Source: a virus (taxonomy: Duplodnaviria; Caudoviricetes). Taken from it: 64,000 nucleotides of DNA. The stretch lies in IMG/VR virus record IMGVR_UViG_3300037501_000255; one strand, 5' to 3'. Below, piece by piece: positions 40,654 through 40,859 of this stretch. The position numbers were made by a program, and so were the translations under genes. How positions within the stretch are numbered: position 1 is the stretch's first letter; each line of letters opens with the position of its first letter. A model generated the notes under the pieces. That model worked only from the letters and a program-made list of their open reading frames with translations, had not been told where the DNA came from and searched no databases.

Positions 40654-40719
40654 TCGGTCAAGTGGGTACTGTGGACTGGTTCATTTTTGAGTAAAGATAA
40701 TCCACAGAAGTCGGACCGA
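40654..40719 (-). ncRNA. stand-alone Y RNA (Y2)
   Basis: UCGGUC-C-GA/UU-GACCGA, CUGUGGA/UCCACAG, UUAUC. Confidence 0.87.
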
Positions 40720-40721
40720 AA

Positions 40722-40772
40722 TGGTGGGGGGTGGATTCGAACCACCGACGCGGCCAATCTCCGCCTGCTCCC
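40722..40772 (-). ncRNA. 51-nt tRNA-like spacer (T-arm plus ACCA, no D-arm) between Y2 and Y3
   Basis: GGGAGCA-G-GCGG-AGATTGG-CCGC-GTC-GGTGG-TTCGAAT-CCACC-CCCC-ACCA. Confidence 0.6.
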
Positions 40773-40782
40773 ATAAATAAAT

Positions 40783-40859
40783 TAGGTCTAGTTGATGGCT
40801 AGAGTGCCCTGGTGGGCGGTTCATTTTGGGTAAACGATAATCTAACCAATTCGGACCTA
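40783..40859 (-). ncRNA. stand-alone Y RNA (Y3)
   Basis: UAGGUC-C-GA...CUA-GACCUA, UGGUUAG/CUAGCCA, UUAUC; loop similar to Y2. Confidence 0.8.

What the first reader, a model, noticed from the sequence alone, without database searches (positions are those of the whole stretch)
40654..40859. Tandem Y RNA pair separated by a 51-nt tRNA-like spacer, directly downstream of tRNA-Val
Seen on the minus strand in order: tRNA-Val, Y3 (40859-40783), a D-armless T-arm-plus-ACCA element (40772-40722), then Y2 (40719-40654). Y2 and Y3 share a loop segment (UUUACUCAAAAAUGAACC vs UUUACCCAAAAUGAACC) but have different upper stems (CUGUGGA/UCCACAG vs UGGUUAG/CUAGCCA). Inference: a duplicated Y RNA released from a polycistron by RNase P and 3' cuts at the tRNA-like spacer. 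The spacer's 3' acceptor strand is only 4 nt, which may be a homopolymer error.
Basis: partly seen in the sequence, partly recalled or inferred. Interest (0 to 1): 0.65.

Follow-up and report, generated by a model that had tools for sequence, protein, structure and literature searches.

The report
Phage Y RNAs flanking stripped-down tRNA
A giant freshwater phage carries two small docking RNAs for the RNA-surveillance protein Ro60 on either side of a cut-down tRNA look-alike that probably marks where tRNA-trimming enzymes cut the long transcript; the look-alike is real and conserved in related phages, but it is not always between two such RNAs and this copy is worn.

Summary
Confirmed: in a jumbo-phage tRNA cluster, tRNA-Val is followed by two genuine minimal Y RNAs (40858-40784, 40718-40655) around a 51-nt D-armless tRNA derivative. 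The window encodes Ro60 33 kb away, and the same Y family sits just upstream of Ro60 genes in many other phages. The short acceptor stem is not a homopolymer error: three other assemblies agree, and extra C's do not repair it. Three related phages show what the spacer is. Two keep a homologue with a perfect, covarying 7-bp acceptor but have no Y2 (in one an ORF separates it from Y3). The third has Y3-element-Y2 with an unrelated sequence that still ends in a 7-bp stem plus ACCA. Elsewhere, Y RNAs often start 3-7 nt after a tRNA(-like) 3' end and Y-tRNA-Y sandwiches recur, but many tandem Y RNAs have only 11-20-nt linkers. Best reading: a t-element-like processing landmark, useful but not required, eroded here; a stand-alone tRNA mimic is the main rival. 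No cleavage or expression was shown. The scan had already reported these Y RNAs from another assembly of this phage, and mini-tRNA look-alikes in other phages.

The parts
40866..40940 (-). tRNA-Val(TAC) with encoded ACCA; its 3' end lies 7 nt before Y3
   Evidence: ARAGORN, Rfam tRNA 65.2 bits
40784..40858 (-). Y3, 75-nt minimal Y RNA: terminal Ro60-type helix with bulged C, 8-bp upper stem, UUAUC, A-rich loop, 4-bp side hairpin
   Evidence: fold z=-3.57; orthologues in three relatives with covarying upper stems; family model hits beside Ro60 genes
40773..40783 (-). 11-nt AU-rich linker (3' trailer of Y3 and 5' leader of the tRNA-like element)
   Evidence: sequence; U-rich trailers follow Y3 in all four phages
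40722..40772 (-). 51-nt D-armless tRNA derivative: eroded 3-4-bp acceptor, 4-bp hairpin without an anticodon loop in the anticodon-arm position, perfect T arm, ACCA; probably from tRNA-Phe
   Evidence: homologues L243:38-96 and L257:288-218 with 7-bp acceptors, 6 pairs with two-sided changes among 3 sequences; its 3' half matches phage tRNA-Phe genes at E 0.06-0.7
40726..40731 (+).
   Evidence: identical in one Logan and two JGI assemblies; no indel on the spanning contig
40655..40718 (-). Y2, 64-nt minimal Y RNA starting 3 nt after the element's ACCA; lacks the side hairpin
   Evidence: fold z=-2.58; Rfam RF01656 E=0.0014; orthologue L252:946-873 with the same terminal C-G pair
34167..34235 (-). 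Y1, a third minimal Y RNA, with no tRNA-like end before it
   Evidence: orthologue L244:2918-2976
5732..7339 (-). Ro60 (TROVE + vWA) gene, 535 aa, the presumed protein partner
   Evidence: Pfam PF25045 E=2e-63, PF05731 E=1.9e-44; PDB 9nen 454 bits, 1yvp 440 bits, 2nvo 381 bits
41213..41240 (-). only sigma-70-like promoter on this strand in 40200-41400, just before the first RNA gene of the run
   Evidence: 9 of 12 matches; 2 sites found against 1.1 expected, so weak

Best explanation
The stretch is part of a polycistronic small-RNA operon of the phage's Ro60 system. Y3 and Y2 are two paralogous minimal Y RNAs that dock on the phage Ro60 through their terminal bulged helix. The 51-nt element is a clade-specific, D-armless tRNA derivative that works like a t-element. 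RNase P would cut at its 5' end, leaving Y3 with an 11-nt AU-rich trailer for exonuclease trimming. A 3' cut after its ACCA or discriminator (RNase E- or RNase Z-type) would leave Y2 with a leader of a few nucleotides, as the tRNA-Val end does for Y3. The element is a convenient landmark and not an obligatory one, and the window's copy is eroded. Shown here: sequence, conservation, covariation, synteny and link to Ro60. Inferred: co-transcription, cleavage, the enzymes involved, Ro60 binding.
For: Y family: model hits cluster within about 1 kb upstream of Ro60 genes on the same strand in many unrelated viral contigs; 15 of 17 pairs show two-sided changes (alignment fitted to the model). Element: what the four phages have in common is what RNase P reads (acceptor helix, T arm, RCCA; PMC10465520). 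A and C keep 7-bp acceptor plus T arm, B keeps 7-bp acceptor plus ACCA, the window keeps T arm plus ACCA. B's element is unrelated in sequence (local scores 12-19 against 35-56 among the homologues) yet fills the same slot 4 nt before Y2. CCA is encoded in the two phages with Y2 and not in the two without (joint chance roughly 0.07 from the rates; suggestive only). In 55 well-formed junctions from other phages and prokaryotic genomes, 54 Y RNAs start 3-7 nt after the discriminator of a tRNA or tRNA-like RNA (the pattern allowed about -2 to 7), and 9 were flagged as Y-tRNA(-like)-Y; print-outs show clear cases in L448, L449, L470, L477. Precedent: D. radiodurans Yrn2 and Yrn1 are made in one precursor with tRNA-Asp (PMC4201824).
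Against: Homologues persist with compensatory changes where no Y2 follows (A, C) and where an ORF separates them from Y3 (C). The middle hairpin is conserved (15 of 15 nt identical between the window and A), which a bare cutting signal would not need. Tandem Y RNAs with 11-20-nt linkers and no tRNA-like element occur in L015, L045, L052, L040, L003, L010, and Y1 has no tRNA end before it. The window copy has 3-4 acceptor pairs; its tRNA-like fold is -16.8 against a minimum of -18.7 kcal/mol (T-stem probability 0.04), and an alternative register pairs up the ACCA. A 7-bp acceptor is called a major RNase P determinant in PMC4201824. The host and its nucleases are unknown.
Confidence: 0.5

Rival explanations
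1. The element is a small RNA gene in its own right: a stable, CCA-ended tRNA mimic without D arm or anticodon (decoy or ligand for host tRNA-directed nucleases, modification or CCA-adding enzymes, or a substrate/partner of Ro60-linked RNA repair). Its processing frees the Y RNAs only as a by-product, and the window copy is shrinking.
For: Kept with perfect 7-bp acceptor, covarying hairpin and T arm in A and C without Y2; linkers identical between A and C; folds as the minimum-energy structure in both. The genome is rich in other tRNA-shaped non-decoding RNAs. T4 rnaC and rnaD are stable RNAs of unknown role in a phage tRNA region (PMC3014915).
Against: Replaced by an unrelated sequence in B and eroded in the window, so two of four phages do not keep the shape; no homologue outside this clade; no G3-U70 or other shared identity pair in the acceptors.
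Confidence: 0.3
2. The element is a decaying tRNA-Phe relic with no present role; Y2 and Y3 are separated by cuts in the AU-rich linkers alone.
For: 3' half resembles phage tRNA-Phe (weak E-values); the window copy lacks 3 nt on each acceptor strand and does not favour the tRNA fold; AU-rich linkers suffice elsewhere. This may be true of the window's copy even if the homologues work.
Against: Three different, perfectly paired 7-bp acceptors in A, B and C and compensatory changes in all three helices are not expected from drift; the window copy still has a perfect T arm and ACCA.
Confidence: 0.17
3. Y3, element and Y2 form one 204-nt RNA (outer ends paired, tRNA-like module in the middle), like a YrlA or Yrn1 with two Ro60 sites.
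For: YrlA and Yrn1 carry a T arm inside a Ro60-binding RNA (PMC4201824); the terminal motifs of Y2 and Y3 are nearly interchangeable.
Against: Cross-pairing probability 0.00 against 1.00 for self-pairing in the window and in B; the terminal pair is A-U in Y3 and C-G in Y2 in both phages; an ORF splits the unit in C; no YrlA match here.
Confidence: 0.03

Closest known systems
Deinococcus radiodurans Yrn2/Yrn1, co-transcribed with tRNA-Asp (Chen et al. 2014, PMC4201824)
   Same: Two Y RNAs in one precursor with a tRNA; both strands of the metazoan-type Ro60 helix are kept; Yrn2 has no tRNA module.
   Different: Here the RNAs are shorter (64-75 nt), phage-encoded, 33 kb from the Ro60 gene instead of within a few kb, and a D-armless tRNA derivative lies between them.
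Vertebrate Y RNAs (Rfam RF00019) and nematode stem-bulge RNAs (RF01656)
   Same: GGUCCGA 5' strand, bulged-C terminal helix, upper stem followed by UUAUC, internal loop; the phage Ro60 scores higher against vertebrate Ro60 than against Deinococcus Rsr.
   Different: Below both gathering scores; shorter than the 80-130 nt of characterised Y RNAs; no oligo-U tail; cut from a precursor, not Pol III transcripts (own knowledge for the latter).
Plant mitochondrial t-elements (Forner et al. 2007, PMC1920247); by memory also mascRNA/menRNA
   Same: Non-decoding tRNA-like structures, down to simple acceptor-like stem-loops, that place RNase P and RNase Z cuts to make the ends of neighbouring RNAs.
   Different: Organelle or nuclear systems with protein-only or eukaryotic RNase P; here a phage in an unknown bacterial host, the neighbours are Y RNAs, and no cleavage is shown.
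YrlA (Rfam RF02553)
   Same: Ro60 partner RNAs with tRNA-like T arm; M. smegmatis YrlA is cut by RNase P and gains CCA (PMC4201824).
   Different: In YrlA the T, acceptor and D modules are inside the Y RNA; here the tRNA-like piece is a separate element outside two self-closing Y RNAs.
T4 rnaC and rnaD (PMC3014915)
   Same: Small non-decoding RNAs from a phage tRNA cluster, role unknown.
   Different: No sequence comparison was made; no link to Ro60 or Y RNAs is known for them.

Membership tests
Y RNA (Ro60-bound) | Terminal helix from 5' and 3' ends with GGUCCGA and a bulged C | tested here: met
   Both copies; Y3 has G-A where Y2 and animals have G-U; terminal pairs covary across the family
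Y RNA (Ro60-bound) | Second stem and large internal loop | tested here: met
   Upper stems pair 7.4 of 8 with their own partner against 4.6 with others'
Y RNA (Ro60-bound) | A Ro60 orthologue in the same genome, same strand | tested here: met
   5732-7339(-), Pfam TROVE and vWA_Ro60; the helix segment recalled as the Y RNA contact is conserved in the alignment to 1yvp
Y RNA (Ro60-bound) | Encoded within about 4 kb of Ro60, as nearly all best YrlA matches are | tested here: not met
   33 kb apart here; but family members lie within about 1 kb of Ro60 in many other viral contigs
Y RNA (Ro60-bound) | Length 80-130 nt and Rfam RF00019 gathering score | tested here: not met
   75 and 64 nt; 20.6 bits against 38. 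Filed as a variant, not as an RF00019 member
Y RNA (Ro60-bound) | Expressed and bound by Ro60 | not testable with these tools
   No RNA run was listed
YrlA (RF02553) | T, acceptor and D stem-loops inside the Y RNA | tested here: not met
   No YrlA match at 40654-40859; Y2 and Y3 close separately
t-element (tRNA-like processing signal) | T-arm motif and acceptor-like stem | tested here: inconclusive
   Perfect T arm but only 3-4 acceptor pairs in the window; full 7-bp stems in three relatives
t-element (tRNA-like processing signal) | Its ends coincide with the ends of neighbouring RNAs | tested here: inconclusive
   Predicted ends only: 3 nt to Y2 and 11 nt from Y3; 4 nt to Y2 in B
t-element (tRNA-like processing signal) | Cleaved by RNase P and a 3' endonuclease | not testable with these tools
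   Needs in vitro cleavage or end mapping
Decoding tRNA (including D-armless mitochondrial type) | Anticodon loop with U33 and a conserved anticodon | tested here: not met
   Loop lacks U33 and is replaced by a longer hairpin in C; not called by ARAGORN or Rfam
tmRNA tRNA-like domain | G3-U70 alanine identity pair and linked tag reading frame | tested here: not met
   No G3-U70 in any of the four acceptors; tmRNA score 8.9 bits against 47; no tmRNA call in relatives

The most novel reading that the evidence does not exclude
Ro60 systems of phages and bacteria use tRNA punctuation to cut arrays of minimal, animal-like Y RNAs out of polycistrons, and this phage clade has pared the punctuation mark down to dedicated, interchangeable mini tRNA mimics (a D-armless one here, an unrelated acceptor-stem-plus-ACCA in relative B): bacterial-phage t-elements kept only to be cut.
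Probability: 0.3. Interest if true: 0.7.

Novelty: new variant of a known kind. Interest (0 to 1): 0.5.

Why it matters
How bacterial and phage Y RNAs get their ends is barely mapped. This locus and its relatives give a small natural series (intact, eroded, replaced and absent spacer; with and without Y2) in which the question can be tested with RNase P and a few short transcripts. If the element is a pure processing mark, it extends t-elements to phages. If it is a stand-alone mimic, it adds a minimal tRNA look-alike to the unexplained small RNAs of phage tRNA clusters. The minimal Y RNAs themselves resemble animal Y RNAs more than YrlA does, which bears on where animal Ro60 RNPs came from.

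Tried and rejected
No whole genome is held, so phage-encoded nucleases, ligases and CCA enzymes outside the window were not checked. No RNA holder listed; both runs were contigs, so a raw-read check of the G run was impossible, X1 may be the window's source, and X2 holds only a small share without a listed piece over the element. The three agreeing assemblies may come from one campaign. Homopolymer repair: adding 1-3 C's does not change the constrained fold energy. Exact-pattern scans for spacer homologues found only chance hits or an ordinary tRNA; the spacer model found nothing beyond the clade but tRNA or chimera fragments; strict GGUCCGA patterns missed the wider family, which mostly reads GGGCCG. 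Trees of two neighbouring proteases and of Ro60 did not resolve the relatives, so gain or loss of Y2 is open; a 6-nt match to the Y2 3' end in C is too short to count. I considered reading the middle hairpin as a D arm (its loop starts RG and ends GG in all three homologues) but kept the anticodon-arm reading, because it is followed by a tRNA-Phe-like variable loop. An 8/4 allo-tRNA fold is possible in A and C through a G-U pair but not in the window. The 2020 Sim and Wolin review was not held; no paper on T5 stable RNAs was found.

Full report
Setting. The window is a jumbo-phage-like tRNA cluster, all on the minus strand: 21 tRNAs by ARAGORN and further tRNA-shaped RNAs. Its proteins occur on a 367,953-base contig and in freshwater metagenomes. 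A Ro60 gene lies at 5732-7339(-); it scores 454 and 440 bits against vertebrate Ro60 chains and 381 against Deinococcus Rsr.

Observation. The order tRNA-Val, Y3, 51-nt element, Y2 is as reported. Each Y closes on itself: a terminal helix with the GGUCCGA strand and bulged C, a 7-8-bp upper stem, UUAUC and an A-rich loop. The signature occurs three times in the window (a third copy, Y1, at 34235-34167) and never in 300 shuffles. Rfam gives sub-threshold matches to nematode stem-bulge RNA and Y_RNA. A perfect T arm plus NCCA did not arise in 20,000 shuffles of the surrounding kilobase.

The Y RNAs are real. A model built from eight copies hits mainly the kilobase upstream of Ro60 genes, on the same strand, in unrelated viral contigs; across 50 distinct hits 15 of 17 pairs change on both sides (the alignment was fitted to the model). 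Upper stems pair with their own partner (7.4 of 8) and not with others' (4.6), and the outermost pair is A-U in Y3 and C-G in Y2 in both phages that have both. So Y2 and Y3 are separate, old paralogues; one large RNA is unlikely (cross-pairing 0.00).

The short acceptor is not a sequencing error. One Logan and two JGI assemblies are identical over 651 bases, no indel is seen on the spanning contig, and adding C's does not improve the fold. Compared with the closest homologue the window copy is 3 nt shorter on each acceptor strand, and the letters missing on the 3' side are not C's. Raw reads were not available, and the assemblies may share one campaign.

Relatives. Through the neighbouring trypsin-like and HNH-like genes I fetched the same slot from related phages. 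A (L250 + L243; two contigs with an 11-nt gap inside Y3, inferred from gene coordinates of an ENA contig): tRNA-Val-like gene, Y3, a 59-nt homologue with a perfect 7-bp acceptor and no encoded CCA, then another tRNA-like piece and no Y2. C (L257): tRNA-Val, Y3, an 83-aa ORF, a 71-nt homologue with a different perfect 7-bp acceptor, no Y2. B (L252): no tRNA-Val; Y3, a 61-nt element with a 7-bp stem and ACCA but no recognisable T arm, then Y2 four bases later. A and C fold into the tRNA-like shape as their minimum, with two-sided changes in all three helices (three sequences only). B's element shows no sequence likeness to the others. A fifth relative (L258) has no such region in the DNA held. 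Trees did not resolve the clade.

What the element is. It is a tRNA without D arm: acceptor, a 4-nt connector, a 4-bp hairpin where the anticodon arm would be (no U33, loop not conserved in C), variable loop, T arm. Its 3' half matches tRNA-Phe genes of several phages, weakly, and no plain tRNA-Phe is called in the window. It is confined to this clade. The window copy is the most eroded: 3-4 acceptor pairs in either of two registers, tRNA-like fold 1.9 kcal/mol above the minimum.

How it most likely works. No promoter- or terminator-like site lies between 41213 and Y2 on this strand (a weak test), so the RNAs are probably cut from one transcript (inferred). Bacterial RNase P reads the T arm, the acceptor helix and the 3' RCCA, and cleaves even 3-bp hairpins with RCCA in vitro, at high magnesium (PMC10465520). 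Each of the four elements keeps a subset of these features and little else in common. A cut at the element's 5' end would give Y3 a short AU-rich trailer; a cut after its 3' end would give Y2 a leader of 3-6 nt, like tRNA-Val does for Y3. The layout is general: in 55 well-formed junctions from viral contigs and prokaryotic genomes, 54 Y RNAs begin 3-7 nt after the discriminator of a tRNA or tRNA-Y chimera, 9 were flagged as Y-tRNA(-like)-Y, 34 of 50 such loci hold a Ro60 gene in the DNA fetched, and none of the upstream elements is D-armless. CCA is encoded only in the two phages with Y2 (chance about 0.07). D. radiodurans makes Yrn2 and Yrn1 in one precursor with tRNA-Asp (PMC4201824), and plant mitochondrial t-elements, down to bare acceptor-like stem-loops, set RNA ends through RNase P and RNase Z (PMC1920247).

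Limits. The element is kept, in better shape, where no Y2 follows and where an ORF parts it from Y3; its middle hairpin is more conserved than a cutting mark needs; and tandem Y RNAs with plain 11-20-nt linkers occur in six other viral contigs. So it is not required for Y release, and it may be a small RNA in its own right, like the unexplained T4 rnaC and rnaD (PMC3014915). For the window's copy, loss of function cannot be excluded. Nothing here shows expression, cleavage or Ro60 binding, and the host is unknown.

Verdict. Observation confirmed; interpretation partly supported. Odds: about 0.93 that Y2 and Y3 are Ro60-binding Y RNAs; 0.5 that the element mainly serves as a processing landmark, 0.3 stand-alone mimic, 0.17 relic, 0.03 one large RNA. 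It is a new variant of known kinds (Y RNAs in a tRNA-punctuated precursor; t-element-like mimic). I found no paper that describes minimal animal-like Y RNAs or such a spacer in phages, but the library lacks most subscription papers. Earlier notes of this scan reported the Y RNAs from another assembly of this phage and mini-tRNA look-alikes in other phages. Interest 0.5.

Noticed in passing
window 41205-41079, 43436-43308, about 43303-43213, 43869-43747, 44083-43948 (all -): Five tRNA-shaped RNAs whose anticodon arm holds a loop-closed Ro60-type helix (tRNA-Y chimeras); orthologues in L250, L257, L258, L351, L352 and similar chimeras beside Ro60 genes in many phages and bacteria. Already reported by the scan.
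   Followed up: partly
window 39531-39401 and 37701-37572 (-): Two tRNA-Leu genes carry a 44-nt mini-tRNA (acceptor, T arm, NCCA) inside the anticodon loop. Already reported by the scan.
   Followed up: no
L250:154-43 (-) and L243:1629-1749 (+): In relative A the tRNA-Val slot before Y3, and the tRNA in the tRNA-Thr slot, carry similar nested mini-tRNA inserts in the anticodon loop, so these inserts are not limited to tRNA-Leu.
   Followed up: no
L252:870-715 (-) and L257:185-20 (-): A conserved structured non-coding stretch of about 160 nt follows the element or Y2 in relatives B and C (local score 128 against a shuffle maximum of 32), absent from the window; no Rfam or ARAGORN match; it holds a short frame starting Ala-Asn after an upstream motif reminiscent of a tmRNA resume site. 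Not found in viral contigs or earlier notes.
   Followed up: partly
window 24304-24222 (-) and L243:8986-9065 (+): Another D-armless tRNA-like gene: a CAU-type anticodon arm directly after the acceptor and a long variable region with D-loop-like sequence.
   Followed up: no
L243:98-170 (+): In relative A a second, poorly folding tRNA-like piece with a T arm takes the place of Y2.
   Followed up: partly
window 41060-40994 (-): tRNA-Trp(CCA)-like gene with a broken acceptor; the orthologue in L257:862-786 is intact, another sign of erosion in this run of genes.
   Followed up: no
window 52019-53167, 59270-60241, 53838-56426, 49070-50038 (-): RlaP-family RNA repair nucleotidyltransferase, MnmA-like tRNA thiouridylase, ClpB-like ATPase and UvdE genes; also two OmpA-domain proteins and an ABC transporter pair near 18412-27479.
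   Followed up: no
L015:9709-9910, L044:9431-9813, L003:9589-9774: Arrays of three or more minimal Y RNAs, or a minimal Y followed by a YrlA-like RNA, start right after a sigma-70-like promoter upstream of Ro60.
   Followed up: partly
L258:748-1 (-): In this relative a 228-aa ORF fragment interrupts the tRNA-like gene after the first chimera, where tRNA-Val and Y3 lie in the others.
   Followed up: no
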